A stretch of DNA of 62,413 bases, filler included, from Squatina squatina (Eukaryota), in assembly GCA_031763465.1 (NCBI GenBank). It is 4 parts of 3 records of this genome, joined end to end, with 100 filler letters (N's around TTAATTAATTAA, not from the genome) between each part and the next. Parts side by side here need not be neighbours in the genome. Positions count along the whole stretch, not along the records: positions 22,536 to 37,419 come from JARFOE010000001.1; 3 more parts are not named here. One strand, given 5' to 3'. Positions 9,247 to 62,413 of this stretch are shown here, in pieces. The translations under genes were made by a program, and so were the position numbers. The notes beneath the pieces are model-generated. The model saw only the letters and a list, made by a program, of their open reading frames with translations, had not been told where the DNA came from and did no database searches. Within the stretch, counting starts at the first letter, position 1; each line of letters starts with the position of its first letter.

Positions 9247-9916
9247 CCACCTATGCACTCCTGCTCCCTCCTGGTGTGAGCAACCTTGGTTCAGACGATG
9301 GTATGTAGCATTTGTTGAAGTATTCATTCACCCTGACTACCTGAGTGAAATCGTTAAATTTCTTCCTGCACTGTATGAGGGTCCTGGGGACCACAATGCT
9401 GCCCGAGATGTGCTGCGTTACCTTCCTCCACATCATGTGGAAGACTTGCAGCGAGCGCCTCCTGTCACTTGCCGGGTAGAGCACCGCCCTCCGTCTCTCC
9501 ACATCGAAAACCAACACCTCCAATGCTTGATCACAGAATCTGCGGGCTCTCTTCCTGGGTCCCACCTGGTTCAGTCCTCCGGCTCCTCCTTATTCTGCTT
9601 CTGCTTGCTGAGGCAGCTGCACAGCCAATAATGCTGAGAATGAGGTGCTGCAGCATCAATGAACCTCCCATTAAGTAGTGAAATAATCACTGTGGCAATC
9701 ATGACTTGCAATTAGGCTGCACCTGATATTGCTCCACTGTTTTTGAGAATAACGCCAATGAGCTTGGGTTTTAAGACTTAAATTAGGACTTCAATCATTT
9801 TATTGAGCAGTGAGCCCAAATTTTTTGTGCAGTCTAAAGCATTAGTGCCTGCCGCTAATTCTCCAACATTTCTACTGACACCGCCCATTCCTTGGCTATA
9901 ATAAATTTCCAGCCCC
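9247..9916 (-). mobile_element. PIF/Harbinger transposon remnant encoding a Myb/SANT-like DNA-binding domain (coding part 9332-9565)
   Basis: Translation RKRARRFCDQALEVLVFDVERRRAVLYP...WRKVTQHISG...RTLIQCRKKFNDF followed by donor AGG|gtgaat. Terminus GGGGCTGGAAATTT (minus strand) at about 9903-9916. Confidence 0.8.
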
Positions 9917-22975: not shown

Positions 22976-24472
22976 GGGAAAGTAGATGCTGGACATCCCC
23001 CTCCTGATGTTGGCTAGGTGCCAGAGTTTACAGCAGCATGACTTGCCTCAAATAAAAAAAAATCATACTCATATTTAAATCCCTTCATTGCTGCACCTCT
23101 ATCTCACTCTGTAACCTCTTACAGCCTTCCAGCCCTCCCCCCAAACTCTCCATTCATCTGACTCCAGCCTCATGTGCATTCGCTCCCTTTGTCCACACTC
23201 TGGAATTTCCATCTTAAACCCTTCTAACTGACCTCTGAGATCTCTGGGTGACATCTTTCAGTGCCTACATGATCTAAATGAAACCATCATGTCTACTTTC
23301 CTGTTGAACAGTGAGGACTCAGATCCAACACCCAGCACAAATGGCATGCCTGGAATTCATCGTCATGACAGAGTCCTTTCTCCTGATGTGAATTTTCCAG
23401 CGAGCTGTAGTAAATTTGGGTGTAAGTTGTCATTGATAAGATAAGCACATTGTTACTACAATATTTTCATGCAGAAGTGGCAAATCTTTGCAATGTGAAT
23501 GAAAGAGAGGCTTGAAAATATTTTTTTTTGGAAAAGTTAAGAGAGTTCCTCCTTTAAACTGCAACCACAGGAAATAAAAATGACTGTGAGGGGGGTTAAT
23601 TTAAAACAAACAGGATAAAGGGACACTCTTGGCAATCTGTGCATTTCTCCCACTCACACACTATAAAGTACCAGATTGAGTTATTGTGCTTCATGTTACA
23701 GATGCTCAGATGATCAAATGCATTTCCTGATGTGCTATGCATCCACAATTTGCTTTGTTCCATGTTAGATGTAGTTCAGTAGGATATGAGTACTTTTAAA
23801 GTTACCAAAAATCCCATCTGCAACATGATCTATGTGCAATTCCTTTCCCTCTGTGAGAACAAGATCTTGGCACAAAGATTCCTCGGCATAATCCTAACAT
23901 TCGGGGGCTAACAAAACAACTGGCCCTCCAATGTCAGTGTTACTTTTGACACTGCCCATATGTGAAACTTCAGCCTCACCAAAACAATTTAAATACCTCA
24001 ACAAGAGATTTTGTTATTCAATGTATTGAATTTTGTACTTTAAATTCATTAAATATTTCTTAAGCTTCAGAAGAACTGGAACTAATCTTATTTCATATTT
24101 TAAACAGTGGCCTGGATATTAACAGGGCCGGGTTACGTTGGCAGGGTAAGGATGGAGTCCAGGTTTCCCCGCATGCTGTTGAATTTTAACTCCACAGTGT
24201 GCATGCATCTTTTATCCTTGACAGGTTCCCCGCCTGGAGATCAGCCTGATAGACAGGCTTGGCTCCCAGTCGGGTGTGGAGGACTCCGGAGCAGCCTGCA
24301 AGACTAGGTAGGTCCGATCCCCGACCCCAGGAGGGGGTCCAAACCCGAGGAGTGGGTTCCAATCCCAGGGANNNNNNNNNNNNNNNNNNNNNNNNNNNNN
24401 NNNNNNNNNNNNNNNNNNNNNNNNNNNNNNNNNNNNNNNNNNNNNNNNNNNNNNNNNNNNNNNNNNNNNNNC

Positions 24473-24536
24473 ATCTATAGAACCCATTCTCTATAGAATC
24501 TGCCTTTTATAGAACCCATCCTTTATAGAACCTGCC
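24473..24536. repeat. Short minisatellite with a unit of about 16 bp (TATAGAACCCATCCTT-like), 4 copies visible next to a gap
   Basis: tatagaacccattctc tatagaatctgccttt tatagaacccatcctt tatagaacctgcc. Confidence 0.75.
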
Positions 24537-25859
24537 TGATTTTTATTTAATTGATTTTAATAAACAAATACCGTGTGGTTTCTCCAACAGCCGGGTGATC
24601 CGCTCTGCCAGATTACCGTCCAGTCAGACCCCCAGTGTCCTCAGAACACAAAGGCCGAAAACTGAAAATAGTAATGAAACCGATTTAAATATGTAAAATA
24701 TGTTGTTCTTTTCAATACTTTCTCAGGGCTTTTTGTTCTTGTTCAGTCTTCTGCGTCACTTATTTTTAAATTTTCTTCACCCTCACTTCTATATTCTGTG
24801 ATAGTTTTAAAGATTTTGATTTTTCTCATTTCATTCCTTATTTGATCTGGAAATTTGTTTATCTGATCCGGAGTTTAATGCAGTTGATTTCGGTCCTGGG
24901 GTTCCTAGCTGATTTTGGAATATCTAAGAGCTCTCTTTCTGTTGTGCATAACCGGACAGCACTAGAACATTGGATGGTGTGGTTATTGTCACTATTAGCA
25001 ATCTGGCTTTGTCTCTATCTCCAACAGTTGCTTCACTCCATTCAATCACAGATTGTACAGATATTGTAGTGGGCTTGCTTTCTTCTAATCTTTCTGGGTA
25101 AATTACCACATCTTTAAACATTACAGAAAAAGCTGTCTATTCTCCAGCCATCATCATTCTCCAAATAACTGTGAACTAGCCAGTACTTAACAATATTTAT
25201 TCAGCACACACTCCCATGCCTATGTAAGAAGGTGCATTCCTGCCACTCATTGTGGATCATTGTCTCTGTCCTTGGTGCAGCTGCTTCAGCTTTTGTACCC
25301 TTATCCCACACATCATGCTTATATGACTGTGAACTATTCCAGGTGTCTTTGTTTGTGCCCCCATACAGCAATGCTCCACATCTAGACTTTGATCCTGTAT
25401 CCCGGGTGGCCACAAATCCCAAAACAATGGTGGTCATGTTAAAAAGCATTTAACCAAAATAACATTTTTTGAGTTACATTGTCAGTTCAGATCTGACTTA
25501 TGGTGTAGATGGCTGTTGATAGGCATCCAGCAAACAACCTAATAAAATGGAATTTCCATGGCCACAATCCTGTACACTTTTTCAACACACGTAAAGACAG
25601 CAACCATTTTGCAATCTCCAATAATCTGACATGGTAAGTTCTAGGTCATTGGGGAATGTGCGCAACCGAGGGAGAAAAAGAAAATCAAAGAACAAGTCAT
25701 CATCGGGTACTCTTAGGAGTAACGTTGGCCTGGGAGCAGATCATCTTGCGGAATTGTTTGAGGCTTGGGGAGGGAGCTTCATAGTAAGAGAAATAGCTAG
25801 AAATAGAGGAGAATGTAATTAGTTATGATCAGGTATACATTTTTTTCAATTAGTTTGTC

Positions 25860-26050
25860 TAAGGAGCTTGGAAAGGGAAGGGTAAGAAATAGTTGTCATG
25901 GTCCATGTCATAACCAATGACATAGGAAGGAACTGGAAGGAGGTCCTGCTAAGTAAGTATCAAGAGCTAGGAGCGAAATTAAAAAACAGGGCCTTGAGAA
26001 TGGTAAATTCTGAATTACCACCCAAGCCATGTGGTAATTGATAGAGGGAG
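25860..26050 (+). mobile_element. CR1 LINE ORF1 (SGNH esterase-like) remnant
   Basis: Encodes VVMVHVITNDIGR..KEVLLSKYQELGAKLKNR, resembling the VHVGTND motif of CR1 ORF1. Confidence 0.7.
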
Positions 26051-26951
26051 AAACAACAATAACAACAATTTGCATTAATATAGCATCTTTAACATGGTAA
26101 AATGTCCAAAGGTGCTTCACAGGAGCATTATCATAAAACAAAATTTGACACCAGGCTACTTANNNNNNNNNNNNNNNNNNNNNNNNNNNNNNNNNNNNNN
26201 NNNNNNNNNNNNNNNNNNNNNNNNNNNNNNNNNNNNNNNNNNNNNNNNNNNNNNNNNNNNNNAAAACAGAGCATGAATTAATGCTGACAGCTATGGCAGA
26301 TGGCAGGAAGCTGTCCCCATTTCTAAAGCTGAAATGAAAAGACACTGAGGATAAAATTCCACCTGGCATACACATACAGTCCCAGAAAATAGCTGGCCGA
26401 CAAGAGGATTTAATGCAGAACTGTGTGGAATCAAAGGCCAGGTACTATATAAACGTGGTCTATTTATGATGTATGCTTTCTGTGATCATTTAAAATTAGC
26501 TGTTTAGTGGCTCATTTGTCAATGTAACACTGATTTGGCCAAAATACCAGGAGGGATGACCGTCCAAATGCAAGCCGTACACATGATTTGTAAACAAACC
26601 ATTCAAGCATGCTTTGTGAAGCAAGTACCACAATTGGGTTTACAAGGGCAATGAAATCGACACCAGCAGACTGTGCAGAATCTTGGAATGCTTTAGATGG
26701 TGCAGTGGATACTGGGCATGGCAACAGATCAAACTGGACTGAAATGTTCAAGGATTTAAAAAACTTTGTACCTTCAGCAACATGTCTATTTAATGATGAA
26801 AATAATCATCTGTCTAGCACCGCAAGAATGAGTAAGGCAAGAAACATATGGTTAGCCTTTGTTTTATAATAACAAGGTACTCACTGGTTGTTGCACAGGG
26901 GGTATTGTATTGTTTGTTTTGTGTTGTGCTTTTTAATCGATAGATACTTAC

Positions 26952-27095
26952 GTTTTGAGCAATCACCACCACTCTAACCAGGCTTACAACCTTCTGTACA
27001 ATTCCCTGTGATATGATTACATTCAGTAGAACCATAACAATTTCTTTCATTACAGGATTTACTACCGTTCATACCATACATAGTCGTAGAGCACG
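26952..27095 (-). pseudogene. Isolated EGF/laminin-type cysteine-repeat exon (MEGF10/SCARF-like, invertebrate style) with in-frame stop
   Basis: Minus strand acag|CG...AAAC|gtaagt, 144 nt, phase 1-1. Translation CSTTMYGMNGSKSCNERNCYGSTECNHITGNCTEGCKPG*SGGDCSK. Confidence 0.75.
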
Positions 27096-29801
27096 CTGTN
27101 NNNNNNNNNNNNNNNNNNNNNNNNNNNNNNNNNNNNNNNNNNNNNNNNNNNNNNNNNNNNNNNNNNNNNNNNNNNNNNNNNNNNNNNNNNNNNNNNNNNG
27201 GCTAAGACCAGGGCACAGTCAGCTATAATTGCCTTTCTCATTCAGAGCCGCAGAATATTCATCACCTCCATATCATGTGCTTGTGTTTGCTAGGCAAAGG
27301 TCTAACTTACTGTGTTCTTCTGACTGCAATGACTTGAATGAGGCTGTGACAGCTGTTTATATTACTTGTGTTAAGAAATAAATGTCACAGATGCGCCTGG
27401 AACTGGTAGTACCCCTGAAACTTTCCTCTTTACTCTTGCTTTAATGGATTTATAAATGCGTTTACAAACAGCAGCCCTGAAGGTCCGATTGAGAATCCTG
27501 TGTAGAAATACTAATGTGTTCCTGCTCCTCAAGGGCTTTTACTGTCGTTAAGCAATCTTTTGAGATCTGTAATAACATTTCTGTCAGAATAAATTAAAGA
27601 TACAAGCAGATCTCCCATACAATTGATTATGGATAGTCTGGGGCCTGGGATATTGTGATGTTTAGCTGCTAACCCGACCTGTCTTTTTAAGGGTAGTGCT
27701 CATGTACTCTCTGTTAGAATCCATATAATTGCAGCTGTAAATTCCTGACAGGAATTAGAGGTCAGTAAATTGCTTGTAAATTTCAGGCTCTAGGTCAGGA
27801 AAAACCCATCATGAAATCCCTGGCATTCTTTCTCTCTTTTTAAGATTGTTTTACATCTGTAACAAAGTGTGACATCTGGAGTGTGACAACGGAATGCTAG
27901 ATGAAAGACATTTTATGGCCCTGAAAATCCACGAGCACAGCATCTCAGAGTAACGCAGGGTCAGGAGAAGATTTTCTAATTTTATTACAGGGGCCAGGGC
28001 CCCACAAAATTAGGAGCACATCCAGGTGCCCGCTATTGGGCGAAGACCAAAATGTGGCACTGGCTGTCCACTCTTACAAAGTGCCAGTCAACGCCCTTCC
28101 TCCATGTCCATACTGCCCCATCAGCCCCTTGAACATTTTTTTTAAATCTTCAGGGTTCCATTCACGACTCAAACTTAGATCCCCAGGTGGGTTCTGTAAA
28201 TGCTGGTTGGCAAGCCAATGTGCCTGCTTTCACTGGGCATACTGTCACACTGGCAGATTCTCAGGACAGGGACAAAGCAACTCCCAGCCTGGGAGTCCCC
28301 TCCCCTAGCCATGACCACTCCCCTAGCCATGTCCCCTATGATGCAAGTGACCTTGTATGGNNNNNNNNNNNNNNNNNNNNNNNNNNNNNNNNNNNNNNNN
28401 NNNNNNNNNNNNNNNNNNNNNNNNNNNNNNNNNNNNNNNNNNNNNNNNNNNNNNNNNNNNCTAAGGTTAGGGATTAAACGAGAGAGTTACCTGGTCTGTA
28501 ATGATTTACTACCATACCATACAGTGCAGTGACACACTAAGCCACTGGGAGAGCTAAATTTGGATTTTTTAAATGTTTTTTTTCCCCAGTGGTGATAATG
28601 GACATTTTGTTGACCTCACAGGATACTAGATTCAATGACATTGGACCTCACAATAGCCCACCCAAAATTGGATCAAGTACCTAATCTTAAACAGATAGTC
28701 TGGTACTGTAAATATACTATTACATATTGCAATACTCTCAGCTGCTATTTGTTACCAAAAAAAAAGCTTTCACATTTCCAGATCAAGCTCAGTTTGGATC
28801 TATTGCTCAAAACTAAATTTGATCTTGCAGCCTGTTTGGACAGCAGCATGTCCCTGAAGTAGGAAGATTGTTGGACTGTATCAGATTTCTGTCTCACACC
28901 TGCCTTGTTGTATGTGGATGTACAAAAAAAAACTCAGAATGGATTCCAATCAGATTGGATTCAGATCTATGTGATCTCCAGCTGCTTTAAAAGCTCTGCT
29001 TCGCCGCAACATCCGTTTGGAACATTTTAACAACTCAGAGCAACCAAGACTATTACCAATGGCAACAGTATCATTTCATCTACAGCACTGTTTTCTTCAA
29101 ATCTGGGCTGATGGATGTGTCCAGAAACTGAGGCGATGCGATCAAAACTCAAGGATGATGCCATCTCCCAGATATGTTTACAAAACCAAATCATACAGAT
29201 TTATAGTTGGGNNNNNNNNNNTTTTGGTCTTTAGTAACAGATAATGGATTAACTGATTTAAGATAATTTACCATGGAACTTTATGAAAATCATATCTGAT
29301 GTTCACAGGACCATAAAAAAATGTTGGAAAGAAAAGGCCACTTATCCAAACCAGTTCACTCCATTGTAAGTCTTCATACAGGAGACGAACACTCCATTTT
29401 TATCTCCATTTTTGCTGCCAGACTCTGAGATTTTTCATATTTCCTTTATATTTTTAAAATTTGGATGTGTTGATGAATTGTTGCATTTGTGAAAGAGTTT
29501 GGCAATTGAGCAATTTTTAAACTGTTGGCACCCAATATCAACATTATGTATCACAGCTGTACAAAGAATAAAGTTCCTCTATTCTGTGCTATGGAGCTGG
29601 TTGAGCCACAGNNNNNNNNNNNNNNNNNNNNNNNNNNNNNNNNNNNNNNNNNNNNNNNNNNNNNNNNNNNNNNNNNNNNNNNNNNNNNNNNNNNNNNNNN
29701 NNNNNNNNNNNGAGCTGTGAAAGCTGCCCTGCAATATAAATAAGGTGGGTTCACAGCACAAGGAGCTTCTTTTTGTATTTGTGAAGTGACTCAATCAACA
29801 A

Positions 29802-30010
29802 ACAACAACTTGCACTTATATAGCACCTTGAACATAGTAAATCACCCAAGGCACTTCACAGGAGTATTATGAAACAAAAATTGGCTCCGAAGAGACCTTC
29901 GGACAGATGAGCAAATGCTAGTCAAAAATGTAGGTTTTAAGGAGAAGAGAGAGGTAAAGAGGTTTAGGAAGAGAGTTCCAGAGCTTAGGGCCTAGGCAAC
30001 TGAAGGCACA
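29802..30010 (-). mobile_element. L2 LINE 3' end
   Basis: acaacaacttgcacttatatagcacc is the reverse complement of the L2 tail. Similar copies at 8095-8186, 26052-26160, 48300-48375 (+), 51815-51880 and 62360-62413. Confidence 0.75.
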
Positions 30011-31836
30011 GGTGTGGGAAGCTTTTGTAGTTTAGTCATTTATCTTGGGCAATTTATCAGTAAGTATATTAAGCAGAGTGCAAAGATGTCATTGCATCAA
30101 CAGCAATAGATATATTTTCTAATTGATTCTGTAACATTGTTTCCACTTTGCCGATTCACTGTCTGAGCTATTTTCGCTCTCTTTCTAGTGTCTTTTCACT
30201 ACATGATTGTGAGTTTTGAATATCATCAAACACTATTTTACCTTTTTGCAGTGAGTTTTATAACCAAAAGCTATTCACGGTGAACGTAAGCCAATGTTAA
30301 AGAATATTTTCTTTGTTAAGTCCATGCTGTAAGCAAGGTATCTGAGCTTTTGTTGCAGTTGAAACTTTCCTATGATGGTCAAAATGGCAACATATGGCTG
30401 CATTTTTGGAGTGGCTGTGTCTGGTCTGAAAACTCCTGGAGGCAACACCTTCAGTATTTAATTTGTGTTTTGGTGCTATGTTTAATGATGCTTAATGGAA
30501 GTGCAATGTGATCTCTCTCTCCTCCTGTCCACCACAAAAATAGAAAGGATTCAGAACAAAACATAGCTTCTTAAATAATCACTCAATCTGAGAGAACACC
30601 TATCTGGCATTAGAAATATGAAACTAGCCCATGTTTGAACTTAAGATGATAACTTGGGGTTCTTGTTAATTTGCATTTGAATGGAAATGATATCTTGGGG
30701 GGCGGGTGGTGTGGGGGGTTGGTGTGTGGGGGGCACTCCACCNNNNNNNNNNGGCCCCAAGCCACCTAATTTAAATAGGTGCTGTCTTCTTTAAACCAGG
30801 AATGATTTTGGTCATGACACCTGCAAGCAATGTGATGTGTTTGAGTTATTATATCTGAGTGCTCGGTAAAGAAACAGTGTTTGGATAAACGTTGCCCTTT
30901 TAGCAATGATGATTCCTGTTGTTTCTGCATTTGACAGGGAAACAGCATTCATTGCATATGCTGTCTTGATAACTTTCTGGAAACCCTTTATTGACATTGC
31001 TGAATGATATTGAATTATTGTGCATTTGTTTATCCTTCATCACGTTCTCAGAATATAAGACAGATGTTGTCAGAATGTAAGACAAGTGTTGAATGGAATT
31101 ACTGTGCACTATAATCAGCTTTCATTTTTTTGGATGCTAATATTTTTTATCCTAAAGGAGCGATATGTGCAGATTTGTCAACTAGTGTTACCAGTTCAAA
31201 TGTGCCAAAAATCAACTGGTTGGTGTGTTTACTCTCTTTGATTAAACACTCCAAGGATGCCATAAATCTTTTTGTTTAAGTACATTTGTATCTAGTTATG
31301 CAAATTGAGTGTGTAATTTTTATAGGCTCCCTAGCACAGATGTGATTATACAGAGTGTGTACTATTTATTCCAGTTCCTTAAATAAAAAGTGTCACCTCA
31401 TACTATGATGCAGTTTAAAATATCATTGAAGAAAAAAAATAGTAGTTTGAAGTTGTCTTAACCTGTGAAGTCCATGTAGGGTTACGAGCTCTTTGACCCC
31501 TTCATGGGAACCATGCCTTAACTTGTACTGTAATGTACAGCACTGAGCATACACTTTCTCTGGAACTGATTATATGAAGAAAATCAACCTTGCAATAAAA
31601 ATGTTCTCTTGTTCGAACATAAGGACATGGAAGTTTAAGTTAGATCAGCCCTGCTCTCCGTGTACTCCCCTAAATCCTTCCACTTTGCTACATCTACCCA
31701 CACTTTTAAAGTCTTTTCAAACACCTTTTCAAATGTGCATTTAATTCTCTCTCCTCATGTTTTTTACTTGACATCTGTTTCTCCTGTGTGAAATGCCATG
31801 GGAAGCTGGCCCAGATTTTGTGGTCAGCCAATCATT

Positions 31837-31944
31837 ACATAGAAACATAGAAAATAGGAACAGGAGTAGGCCATTCGGCCATTCGAGCCAGCTCCGCCAT
31901 TCAATATGATCATGGCTGATCATCCAAATTCAGTACCCTGTTCC
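31837..31944 (-). mobile_element. CR1-type LINE 3' end with (TTTCTATG)n tail
   Basis: acatagaaacatagaaaataggaacaggagtaggccattcggcc. Confidence 0.85.
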
Positions 31945-34206
31945 NNNNNNNNNNNNNNNNNNNNNNNNNNNNNNNNNNNNNNNNNNNNNNNNNNNNNNNN
32001 NNNNNNNNNNNNNNNNNNNNNNNNNNNNNNNNNNNNNNNNNNNNAGAGCAATTCAGCATGCACTATCCAGGCTTAAATGGGAAAAATAGTTACTTGGCAA
32101 ATGCTGCCAGCATCTGTGGACTTGTTTTGCAGCATGAGTCACCACTTTAAGAAGAGGGAAGAAAACTGATGTAAGAGAGAATGTAATCCTGTTAGATTAA
32201 CGTGTGTCATAGAAGCAATTTACTTTGCTTCAACTTGCCGATGTACACTGCATCTGCAGATAAAGTCTGCATTTTTATCTCTTAGTCCAGTAGAACATCT
32301 CAGTCTTTTCTGGATCTTAAGCCTGATTACATTTTGTACAGTATACTATGCCTTTCCCTGGTTTGTCCGCCCTTTTTAGACAGCCCCGCACAATATCTTA
32401 ATCAAACTATGTTGGTTTTATATCTTTCTGAGGTGCTGCTGATAGCTTAAATTTTGTTTTTTCCTTAATGAATATAAGAAAACAGACGGGAAGGGCAAGA
32501 GGATGCGGGGACCATTTAGGATTGTAAACTGTATTCATGTGATTGGATTTGTTTTTTGGAGGATGTAGGGGAGTGAGTCCCTTGTGGGATGTGTGCCTTG
32601 CCCTGGAGTATTGTGTGACTGAAAACATTCCTTTGAAAACCAAGTGCCTCAAAGGGAAGTCAGGAAATGCATTTGAGTCAGCATTGTTTATGGAGAAGCA
32701 GAGGAAATTAATAAATCAAGGAAGCCAGCACACGAGTTCCTTTTGAATATAGAAAATGACGTCTTTAATTAAAAAAATTTGAACAATGATGTCGGAGGCA
32801 AAGCTGCAGGGTCACAGACTTGTAAGTTATGACTGTGGCATGCCATGGTGTGCTGAGCTGCACAAAACCATGGGAACTCTACTGAAATGAAGAGATGTTT
32901 ATCAAAATAAAGCACTTATTTGCCTTCAGGCACTCTGTAAGGGATATTGGTTAAAGAGAAGTATCCTGCTTCCTATAGTAAATATGACTGTCCAGTAATG
33001 AAGGAAATATTTTTGGACTCATGAGAAAGGTTCTCATTCTCTTTACAGACCTGGGGTCTGAAGTGAGACAAAGAGCTATAGACAATAATATTTGGCATAT
33101 AAGTCAAGCAAACCTCAAGGTGTGACTTCTACAATGTTGCAAGCAATTATTTTATAGCTCAGCTACCCAGCAACTTTAATCCCAGTGGAACATAGCCCGT
33201 GCATTGGTTTTTAGGGCAACAATCACAGGGATTAGAAATTTCCCATCAAATACCTTCAAGGGTTTCGCGATTTTAATTTTAATTGTGCTGTAATATGTCC
33301 ATCCTTGGTGTGAATAGTACCAGGCTGTTGATGTCATGAAGTATACTGTTCGTTGACAATTCTACCGGCAGCTGCTGAAAGTGTGCATTTATAAAACATA
33401 AATAAATTGGAGCTTAAACTACTCACAGGGTCTAACATTATCTGAACCCTGGATTAGGTCGATACACTGACTGTTAAGTTCTGAATTTATCATTACATGC
33501 TCTACTGCAGGGTAGCGCACATATTGTAAAAATAAACATCTTGGCAAAAGACTCCCATTCTATTGCAGGATTTTGTACAGCTAATGTTGGCATTGCAATA
33601 TAAACGCAGACCTCCAGTGATGCTGTCATTGATCTTGCTCATCTCTGAACAATGTAGATGCCAGTATTGNNNNNNNNNNNNNNNNNNNNNNNNNNNNNNN
33701 NNNNNNNNNNNNNNNNNNNNNNNNNNNNNNNNNNNNNNNNNNNNNNNNNNNNNNNNNNNNNNNNNNNNNAGGGATATGTTTGCCTCCTCTTAGCACAGAT
33801 ATTCACCTGTCCTCTTTTTGACTTCTTGCTGGGTATAGTCCTACAGGCAATTGGCATCCTTCCCTACCTTGCCTGAGTTCCCATTATTCATTTGCGAAGC
33901 TAGATCGTGAATGTTGGTGTGGCAGGGGCAGATACTTGATTGGAGGTTTAAACATCGAGCTGTGGGAAAGATACACACAAATTTGGGAAGAGATAATTTT
34001 CAAAAACTTTGGAGAGGAAAGGGAAATTGCACATGGGGCAGTGATTTGCAAGGACAAAGGGGTCAAGGTTTATACAGTCGGTATTGTACTTAAGTACATC
34101 AAGAAATGTAAGAGTGTTTTATGAAAGAGGCAGCCAAAGCCTTAATAAACCTCTGCTTATGGTAGTCTTTAATCACATTATTTAATAGCAATATTTTTTC
34201 TTGCAG

Positions 34207-59694: not shown

Positions 59695-60082
59695 NNNNNN
59701 NNNNNNNNNNNNNNNNNNNNNNNNNNNNNNNNNNNNNNNNNNNNNNNNNNNNNNNNNNNNNNNNNNNNNNNNNNNNNNNNNNNNNNNNNNNNNNGTTGAG
59801 ATAAAAGATGAATGGTGGAGCAGGCTTGAAGGGACAAATGGCCTACTCTGGCTCCTATTTATTATGTTCTTATTGCATGTAGTTGAGAATAAAATTTCTA
59901 CTGTTTTTTTTCCCCTCTTGAGTTTAAAATTTGTGGAAGGAATTTATTGAAGAAGGGTTTAACATATCAATTTATTTGTGTTGAGAAAATATTAAACTTT
60001 TTAAATCTGTTCATTCTAAATTTTGCTCTGATAATTTTAAACTGAATGTTTATTTGTGCTAAATTGCTTCTTTTTCTTTTAG

Positions 60083-60301
60083 AATATATCCGACAAAGCT
60101 ATGGACTTAATACAGAATTTGTCACACTTAGTGACTACAATAAACTGGTGCTTTCCCTTATGTCTGGACTCCCAAATGAAGTGGATTTTGCAATTAATGT
60201 TTGCACTCTTCTCTCAAATGAGAGTAAACACATCATGCAACTTGAAAAGGACCCCAGAATCACCACCATACTGCTCGCACATGCTGGAGTTTTTGATGAC
60301 A
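60083..60301 (+). CDS. ARID2: ARID2 internal exon (equivalent to human exon 5)
   Basis: tttttcttttag|...|gtaag, 219 nt. Translation [72 protein letters not shown]. Confidence 0.95.
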
Positions 60302-60888
60302 GTAAGATATACTACTTAATGCTTACGCGTATTGACAGTATTTGCTGTGTTACTGGCTGTTTCACTTTTAAATACGGAATTGTTACATGTTAGAACATGT
60401 GGGATAAATTGGAAAGAAAAATCTAAGCTCAAAATATGTAAATTCACAATTTGTTCAACTTTGATATGCAGCTGAATTAGTTATCCAAATGAGGCAAATC
60501 TACTGGGATACTACCCCTTTTTAAAGTTTGATGTGAAATGTGACACATTATTCATGTGGTGTTCCTGCACACCCCACCCCAAGTATATGTAGGTCTTGAT
60601 CTGGAATAGTTCATCATTTCGTTTNNNNNNNNNNNNNNNNNNNNNNNNNNNNNNNNNNNNNNNNNNNNNNNNNNNNNNNNNNNNNNNNNNNNNNNNNNNN
60701 NNNNNNNNNNNNNNNNNNNNNNNNCAACACTCCTGAAGATGACATTTTAAAGAACTATTGTATGCATTTGCCTTTGTGGCTTAGATTTCATCTGCAATTC
60801 ATTGTGCATACTGTTTAATAAAATTTCAATAAGAAATTTATGTTATGCATGGCATAATTTAAAATGGCCTCTGTTTTATATTTCATAG

Positions 60889-60958: not shown

Positions 60959-61349
60959 GTTAGTGAAGGAATACATTTTTGAAAGCTCAAGAGCCAGAAT
61001 AAATATTTAACTGAAAAGTTGATATTTAGGGTTTTTGTTGAATAATCATTTTAACTGCAATGTTTTTATGGTTGTGAAGTAACAACTTCATCATGCGAAT
61101 GTTCAATATGCTGTATAGATAGAATGGTTAAAAAAAAATTGTCATCGCTGGTTTTCATGTGGTGAGTTCCCAATCTCTGTTGCATTGTTGAGGGAAATAC
61201 TGAGTAGAGATCAGTGACTTTACCCAGCAGGGACAGAAGGAACCTTTTGCTCTACTTTAATGCTTCATTTTCTGTATGAATTTGTATTTTTGTTTATGTA
61301 CCCAGATTTTTTTATGTCTTTATATAAAATTGATTTTTTATCAATTTAG

Positions 61350-61600
61350 GTACGAGTATAGAAGTAGATATGGAGACATCTTTATTCCACCCCTCTCATA
61401 AACTGGGCATCAATGATGTTGAGGGGCAACGGGTGCTTCAGATAGCAGTAATCCTTCGCAATTTGTCATTTGAGGAAGGAAATGTGAAGATGTTGGCAGC
61501 TCACCGTACATGTGTCCGCTTCCTCTTGCTGTGTTCCCATTGTCAGTATGCTTCTCTCAAGCAGCTGGGACTGGACACATTGGGTAACGTAGCAGCTGAG
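61350..61600 (+). CDS. ARID2: ARID2 internal exon (equivalent to human exon 8)
   Basis: tttag|GT...GAG|gtaag, 251 nt. Translation [61 protein letters not shown]...[12 protein letters not shown]. Confidence 0.95.
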
Positions 61601-62413
61601 GTAAGAAATTATTCTAATAGTGCATTTCAGTTACTAAAATTGTATGTATTCTATGCTCGTACAAACCATAATCTAACAGAGGAAAGATTGTTTTGTAATT
61701 ATATATGTAAATCAGTTATAATTAGTGTAATATTTTTGTGTAAACTGTAAATGTCATGCTTTGAGTTTGGGGGGAAGTCAACTTGCATGTGGAACTAGTG
61801 AGATTTCCTAGCTTTCATAAATGTACACATTTTGAATGAAAGCGAAAATATTCTTGTCTCTAAACCTCAAAGCAGGATTTTTATGAAATGCTGCATACCC
61901 TATGATTCTCCCCTCCTCCCTGACAGAACCCAAGAATCCCATAATGAACCAAACCCCACATTCCAATCTCTACTGCTATCAAACCCTAAATTCCCACCCG
62001 ATCATACCAAGTTCCAGAACCACTTTCTCAGCGATACTAAGATCACAGACCCACTCTGCTGTCGAAGCCTCGTACTTCTCGCACCCTAAATGCAGACACC
62101 CACTTTCAACCTGGTGCATGTTTCCTACATCTTGTTGAACATACTGGGCTATAAAACAGTTAATGAGATGAAGATTGACTGCATTGGTAAAGGACACATA
62201 ATGCATCATGCCATTGATTTAGAATTTTCAAAGAAAAATTAACAGAATTATAGAATTCGATCTGCTAAACATTGGTTAAAGAGCAAAAATGTGAGATCAT
62301 AGAGAAACAATACACAACTTGTTGTGGCTCGAATAATGCCTTGTGTGTTGATGAAAGAAAGAAGCAACTTGCACTTAAAGAGCACCTTTCACAACCTCCA
62401 CATGCCTCAAAGC

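What the first reader, a model, noticed from the sequence alone, without database searches (positions are those of the whole stretch)
26952..27095. Mollusc-style EGF-repeat exon embedded in a shark-like scaffold
Seen: a 144-nt phase 1-1 exon with ag/gtaagt boundaries, missed by the ORF track, encoding CSTTMYGMNGSKSCNERNCYGSTECNHITGNCTEGCKPG*SGGDCSK. TAG at 26974-26976 sits where the conserved Trp (TGG) belongs, and GGT sits where a Cys (TGT) is expected. Known: vertebrate MEGF10/11 and SCARF repeats usually read CxxxTGxCxCxPGWxG. The variant TGxCxxGCxPGWxGxDC with a CxxRxC segment is the form I recall from expanded MEGF10-like/PTP families of gastropods and bivalves. Inference: the exon is foreign to the ANKRD50 neighbourhood. 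It lies at the tip of a small contig next to a gap, so contamination or a chimeric read is the most likely explanation. Horizontal transfer or an unrecognised chondrichthyan EGF-repeat family are the interesting alternatives.
Basis: partly seen in the sequence, partly recalled or inferred. Interest (0 to 1): 0.7.

Follow-up and report, generated by a model that had tools for sequence, protein, structure and literature searches.

The report
Mollusc DNA contaminating shark assembly
A 199-base piece of a mollusc-type receptor gene sits at the very tip of a short shark contig, most likely stuck there by a sequencing or assembly error, in an assembly that also carries bird and bacterial DNA.

Summary
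The exon is real (minus strand, 27095-26952) and foreign. Its protein relatives are MEGF-like and receptor-phosphatase EGF repeats; all 25 of the 30 hits looked up that name an organism are molluscs, the closest abalones and a vent snail. Public runs of two other organisms hold a multi-copy family matching 26901-27099, exon plus 51 nt of intron; one run tiles it with 3-4 differences, and its contigs run on into unlike DNA at 26901. Left of that lies an old host repeat family, traced to 26889. So 199 nt of near-current mollusc DNA is joined to shark DNA at a contig tip. The stop and the lost Cys are private to this assembly; donors read Tyr/Phe (not Trp) and Cys. The same assembly holds two bird mitochondrial contigs and two more foreign tips fused to host repeats (a Sporosarcina-like gene, an invertebrate-type ND1). 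Best reading: a contamination chimera (about 0.92). Very recent horizontal transfer is not excluded, because the assembly's own reads were not available (about 0.04). A shark gene family is not supported. The scan's earlier notes held nothing like it.

The parts
26952..27095 (-). 144-nt phase 1-1 exon for one mollusc-type EGF repeat (MEGF-like / receptor tyrosine phosphatase ectodomain)
   Evidence: relatives; profile of mollusc repeats scores it 26.8 bits over positions 1-44 of the model, against 11.8 for the best host locus fetched
26901..26951 (-). 51 nt of the donor's own intron, starting GTAAGT
   Evidence: covered by X1 record 1 (26901-26959, 1 difference) and X2 record 8 (26901-27014, 3 differences)
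27096..27099 (-). Splice acceptor ACAG, cut off by the contig end
   Evidence: donor contigs run over the end of the stretch (1 in X1, 3 in X2, 1 each in X3 and X4), so the second end of the foreign piece is not seen
26974..26976 (-). TAG stop, private to this assembly; donors read Tyr or Phe
   Evidence: at 26974 other_depth equals all_depth in all 6 runs laid
27064..27066 (-). Gly codon where donors have Cys, private to this assembly
   Evidence: at 27066 other_depth equals all_depth in all 6 runs laid
26890..26901 (.). Host/foreign junction; 11 nt (26890-26900) assigned to neither side
   Evidence: host repeat homology ends at 26889 (L005); donor contigs have loose ends of 96 (X1) and median 196 letters (X2, 2 contigs) before 26901
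26275..26889 (+). Decayed host repeat, likely a pogo-type DNA-transposon fossil
   Evidence: 6 other copies in G000 at 60-76% identity; Pfam DDE_1 only at E 0.12, below cut-off; CpG o/e 0.24
27100..27199 (.). 100-N scaffold gap directly beyond the foreign tip

Best explanation
A 199-nt fragment of mollusc-type genomic DNA, one exon of a multi-copy EGF-repeat receptor gene plus 51 nt of its intron, is joined to a host repeat at the tip of a short contig, most likely as a contamination chimera. Shown: the fragment's extent, its 98% identity to another organism's DNA, the mollusc relatives, the host repeat to its left, and other foreign DNA in the assembly. Inferred: trace foreign DNA was in the library or sequencing data, and a chimeric molecule or a low-coverage contig extension carried the join. 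I favour a chimeric molecule, because no zone is seen where the host repeat family and the donor sequence agree. Also inferred: the two private T-to-G changes are read errors left uncorrected at very low depth. The piece would have no function in the shark.
For: (1) X1 records 1, 2, 6, 7 overlap by 30 nt and tile 26901-27099 with 3-4 differing sites, intron included; donor contigs run on unlike the window at 26901. (2) 25 of 30 hits looked up (of 150 listed) name an organism, all molluscs; 9 of the 10 best single-repeat matches are Haliotis or Gigantopelta, 1 is unnamed. (3) Up to 9 distinct contigs per site in one run and several different intron continuations show a gene family in the donors; G000 gave only the self-match. 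(4) 4 of the 7 matches to four mitochondrial marker families in G000 are foreign. L068: cytochrome b, 441 bits to chicken 1BCC against 377 to the next hit, then tRNA-Thr and tRNA-Pro. L071: ND3 frameshift after codon 58, known only from birds and turtles (PMC7814300 abstract). L067: a tip 98% identical to Sporosarcina QcrB fused to host repeat DNA. L070: a 42-codon invertebrate-code ND1 tip fused to host-repeat DNA. (5) Fragmented assembly: median contig 1192 nt in the window, N gaps inside a coding exon. (6) FCS-GX under-reports chimeras, and same-kingdom ones need 10 kb (PMC10898089, passages), so a screen of that kind would likely leave such a tip.
Against: No mollusc marker was found among the 7 mitochondrial, 8 18S and 11 5.8S rows (loose first look, lower bounds), and no second copy of the exon family. 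Both private changes are damaging, as in a decaying insert. The T-to-G argument is weak: two sites only, neither in the error-prone GGT trimer, and PMC8002175 cites an early T-to-G bias but found no clear dye signature itself (passages). The CpG excess of the tip (0.77 against 0.24) is reached by 7.7% of 1015 windows. That organisms A and B are molluscs is inferred; their names are coded. No contig with the empty host site was found.
Confidence: 0.92

Rival explanations
1. Very recent horizontal transfer: a piece of mollusc DNA entered the shark germ line by end-joining into an old transposon fossil, in a probable intron of the ankyrin-repeat gene (opposite strand), and has since taken two mutations.
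For: The join lies inside one contig, not at a gap. It is single-copy in G000 with no other mollusc marker found. Two private damaging changes.
Against: It lies at a contig tip, like the bacterial and invertebrate-type tips L067 and L070. No second junction, target-site duplication or mobile-element part is seen. No difference is listed at the four CpGs not made by a private change, whereas the host DNA around is CpG-poor (median o/e 0.32). Three paper searches (listings only) showed no title reporting such a case.
Confidence: 0.04
2. A real but somatic or gut-derived hybrid: prey or parasite DNA was in the sampled tissue and became joined to shark DNA during extraction or in a few cells; not heritable.
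For: Sharks eat molluscs (general knowledge). A bacterial tip also occurs.
Against: Bird mitochondrial contigs point to laboratory or sequencing cross-talk between unrelated animals. In outcome it is still contamination and differs from the best reading only in the source.
Confidence: 0.03
3. An unrecognised chondrichthyan EGF-repeat gene or pseudogene.
For: G000 has 116 laminin-type EGF matches, and the peptide aligns weakly to some (best 39% over 38 aa).
Against: 0 GxCxxGC-type motifs against 8 GxCxC-type in the 30 of 116 host loci fetched, versus 576 against 3 in the 150 relatives. No vertebrate among 25 named relatives. 98% DNA identity, intron included, to organism A. No paralogue in G000.
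Confidence: 0.01

Closest known systems
Gastropod MEGF10/11-like proteins and EGF-repeat receptor tyrosine phosphatases (Haliotis rubra XP_046560687.1, XP_046552075.1; H. rufescens XP_048238362.1; Gigantopelta aegis XP_041374115.1)
   Same: Repeat length and Cys spacing, the CxxR(N/H)C segment and TGxCxxGCxxG[WYF] motif; 46-55% identity over 46-49 aa. Several carry galactose-binding and phosphatase domains (3 of 10 scanned have Y_phosphatase).
   Different: Here one isolated exon with a stop and a lost Cys. No relative exceeds 57% identity among the 40 best single-repeat matches printed, so the donor species is none of these.
MEGF/GBD receptor-like phosphatases of Biomphalaria sudanica SudRes1 (PMC12297450, passages read)
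   Same: Expanded, clustered paralogous MEGF-domain genes in a snail: the kind of family the donors hold.
   Different: No sequence comparison was possible; three short motifs found nothing in 11 supplementary files, and one scanned file was not searchable.
Contig-end contaminant chimeras (FCS-GX paper PMC10898089, passages read)
   Same: Short foreign span at a contig end, animal in animal, of a class the paper says is under-reported.
   Different: That paper simulated 1-kb ends on 100-kb hosts; this one is 199 nt on 638 nt.
Vertebrate MEGF10/11, SCARF and laminin-type EGF repeats
   Same: Cys-rich EGF-like module with TGxC.
   Different: Host laminin-type repeats use GxCxC spacing. Host MEGF10/11 exons were not picked out by name; their spacing is recalled.

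Membership tests
Mollusc MEGF-like / RPTP EGF repeats | Best sequence relatives are mollusc proteins | tested here: met
   25 of 25 named hits, of 30 looked up, of 150 listed
Mollusc MEGF-like / RPTP EGF repeats | GxCxx(x)GCxxG[WYF] spacing and eight-Cys repeat | tested here: met
   motif in 148 of 150 relatives; the exon has it, with one Cys and the aromatic residue changed only in this assembly; profile score 26.8 bits
Mollusc MEGF-like / RPTP EGF repeats | Multi-copy, one repeat per exon in the donor genome | tested here: met
   several distinct contigs per site and different intron continuations in runs X1-X6
Mollusc MEGF-like / RPTP EGF repeats | Linked transmembrane and phosphatase or galactose-binding exons | not testable with these tools
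   only one exon is present; donor contigs cannot be fetched
Contamination chimera | Near-identity to another living organism, non-coding DNA included | tested here: met
   3-4 differences in 199 nt against run X1
Contamination chimera | Other foreign DNA in the same assembly | tested here: met
   L067, L068, L070, L071
Contamination chimera | Junction supported by one molecule or far below host depth | not testable with these tools
Genuine horizontal insertion | Host DNA on both sides, with a second junction or target-site duplication | tested here: inconclusive
   one junction only; the other side ends at a gap
Genuine horizontal insertion | Present in other individuals or related species | not testable with these tools
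   no related genomes are held
Vertebrate MEGF10/11 or laminin-type EGF | GxCxC spacing and paralogues or neighbouring exons in the host genome | tested here: not met
   (30 of 116 host EGF loci examined)

The most novel reading that the evidence does not exclude
A fragment of an ordinary, non-mobile mollusc immune-receptor gene entered a shark's germ line so recently that it is still 98% identical to the donor, a prey-to-predator nuclear gene transfer between phyla caught in the act.
Probability: 0.04. Interest if true: 0.8.

Novelty: not a real feature. Interest (0 to 1): 0.1.

Why it matters
As biology it likely does not matter: the shark probably does not carry this DNA. As a warning it does. 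This assembly holds bird mitochondrial DNA and short foreign tips fused to host contigs, so other 'horizontal transfer' findings on this genome, above all at contig ends, need read-level proof. If the join were real, it would be a rare case of a non-mobile invertebrate gene piece entering a vertebrate germ line.

Tried and rejected
Pfam and PDB sequence search (best E 0.068) did not place the peptide. Two word-index protein searches found no candidate. Scans of metagenome contigs and viral contigs found nothing; the one bacterial-genome match is a chance 21-mer. The protein-atlas look-up was not obtained, so language-model neighbours are unknown. No RNA holder listed. Laying X1, X2, X5, X6 on 24472-33669 at 80% gave depth in 4, 8, 6 and 5 of 30 bins, with none in the bins that hold young host repeats; this fits non-shark organisms, but lack of cover is not counted as evidence. 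A divergent 5.8S copy (L056) looked foreign, but its spacers align at 74-85% to host spacers; rejected. A second 18S (L019) is a host pseudogene, 89% identical with C-to-T decay. COX1 matches L015 and L016 and cytochrome b match L069 are broken and look like host nuclear copies; not classed further. The 26-aa frame after tRNA-Pro in L068 looks like ND6 by recall, but Pfam and PDB gave no hit. No empty-site contig. Earlier-findings searches by words and by sequence returned nothing. No structure was predicted: 49 residues with a stop would add nothing. PMC9334734 (passages) lists only two MEGF10 orthologues in Aplysia and did not help.

Full report
Observation. The window is a pack of four stretches with many 100-N gaps. 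The finding lies in an 837-nt contig, 26263-27099, at G000:C1:4266978-4267814. On the minus strand 27095..26952 is a 144-nt phase 1-1 exon between ACAG and GTAAGT that encodes the quoted peptide. It ends 4 nt from the gap. About 7 kb on, on the plus strand, lies a large exon with a TANC1-like winged helix and ankyrin repeats; the name ANKRD50 is recalled. That the host is a shark rests on earlier notes of the scan and was not tested here beyond CpG depletion (median o/e 0.32).

What the exon is. phmmer over 1.84 billion proteins, with X at the stop, gave 173 hits at E<=0.001, 150 listed. I looked up 30 of the 150: 25 name an organism, and all 25 are molluscs (Haliotis, Gigantopelta, Elysia, Solemya, oysters, clams); 5 name none. 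Of the 10 best single-repeat matches (46-55% identity), 9 are Haliotis or Gigantopelta and 1 is unnamed. They are annotated MEGF6/10/11-like, draper-like or receptor tyrosine phosphatase; 3 of 10 scanned carry a phosphatase domain. Such genes form expanded clusters in snails (PMC12297450, passages). The GxCxx(x)GCxxG[WFY] motif occurs 576 times and the GxCxC type 3 times in these relatives. In the 30 of 116 host laminin-type EGF loci fetched the counts are 0 and 8. A profile of mollusc repeats scores the exon 26.8 bits and the best host locus 11.8. G000 gave only the self-match by DNA and by protein.

How far the foreign DNA reaches. Six public runs of two coded organisms (at most three samples) share words with the stretch; all six were laid. 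Their contigs cover 26901-27099. In X1, records 1, 2, 6 and 7 overlap by 30 nt and tile all 199 nt with 3-4 differing sites, 51 nt of intron included. Several distinct contigs cover each site and continue into different introns, so the donors hold a gene family. At 26901 one X1 contig and two X2 contigs run on for about 100-200 letters unlike the window. On the right, donor contigs pass the contig end, so the piece is cut by the gap and no second junction is seen. On the left, a repeat family with six other copies in G000 (60-76% identity) is traced from 26275 to 26889. It is probably a pogo-type fossil (DDE_1 at E 0.12; otherwise recalled). The join thus lies within 26890-26901.

The two lesions. 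At 26974 and 27066 every covering donor contig differs from the window. Read errors at very low depth would explain them. An early study's T-to-G bias and G over-calling are cited in PMC8002175, but that paper saw no clear dye signature, and neither site is in a GGT trimer. This point is weak. Decay after a real insertion is also possible.

Is the assembly clean? No. Four mitochondrial marker families gave 7 matches, 4 of them foreign. L068 is an intact cytochrome b end, closest to chicken (441 bits against 377; 1BCC is Gallus gallus per PMC5966358, one passage), followed by tRNA-Thr and tRNA-Pro and a frame that resembles ND6 by recall, which would be the avian order (PMC4111848, passages). 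L071 is an ATP6-COX3-ND3-ND4L block with a frameshift after ND3 codon 58, reported only in birds and turtles (PMC7814300, abstract). L067 has a tip of about 490 nt, 98% identical in protein to Sporosarcina QcrB, with CpG o/e 1.26, on a contig whose other end is a host repeat, o/e 0.36. L070 has a 42-codon ND1 start open under the invertebrate code, best PDB hit 8b9z_H (60 bits; fruit fly by recall) over the next (51 bits), on a contig with a host repeat; being short, it is the least sure. The other 3 matches look like broken host nuclear copies. No mollusc marker was found, in these or in 8 18S and 11 5.8S rows; these searches are lower bounds. Chimeric ends are under-reported by FCS-GX, and same-kingdom ones need 10 kb (PMC10898089, passages); whether this assembly was screened is not known.

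Mechanism. Most likely trace DNA of a mollusc, probably a gastropod, was in the data, and a chimeric molecule extended a thinly covered shark contig by 199 nt. The median contig in the window is 1192 nt, and gaps interrupt a coding exon. A join by the assembler through shared words is less favoured, since no zone is seen where host family and donor agree; the host copies are old, so this is soft. The decisive read-level test could not be run.

Rivals. Very recent horizontal transfer (0.04) needs a second junction, presence in other individuals and host-level read support; none is shown, and bacterial and invertebrate-type tips of the same build argue against it. Searches of the paper library (listings only) showed no title on a mollusc host-gene piece in a shark. 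A prey- or parasite-derived hybrid (0.03) differs only in source. A shark gene family (0.01) fails on motif, relatives and DNA identity.

Verdict. Observation confirmed, foreign origin shown, artefact likely. Not a real feature of the shark genome; interest 0.1. The useful result is the flag on this assembly.

Noticed in passing
L067 = G000:C300206:1-490: Intact start of a Sporosarcina-like qcrB gene (98% protein identity) at a contig tip, fused to host repeat DNA: a second foreign-tip chimera.
   Followed up: yes
L068 = G000:C689970 and L071 = G000:C591745: Two free contigs of bird-type mitochondrial DNA (cytochrome b with tRNA-Thr and tRNA-Pro; ATP6 to ND4L with the ND3 position-174 frameshift). 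No intact host mitochondrial gene came up in the four marker searches.
   Followed up: yes
L070 = G000:C653340:3-128: Invertebrate-code ND1 start at a contig tip, on a contig with a host repeat: likely a third foreign tip.
   Followed up: partly
L056 = G000:C425321: A divergent rDNA unit: its 5.8S lacks about 10 states shared by the other 8 copies aligned, and its spacers are 74-85% like the main host spacers. Possibly a second rDNA type or an old paralogue.
   Followed up: partly
window 26275-26889: Decayed pogo-like transposase fossil with at least six other copies in G000.
   Followed up: partly
window 30697-30742: G-rich low-complexity run just before a 10-N gap; may be real or a sequencing artefact.
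   Followed up: no
window 9254-9589 (-): Open frame resembling a Myb/SANT-like DNA-binding protein of Harbinger-type elements, by recall only.
   Followed up: no
window 60046-60390 and 61334-61747 (+): Two coding-like exons resembling ARID2 by recall; no Pfam hit.
   Followed up: partly
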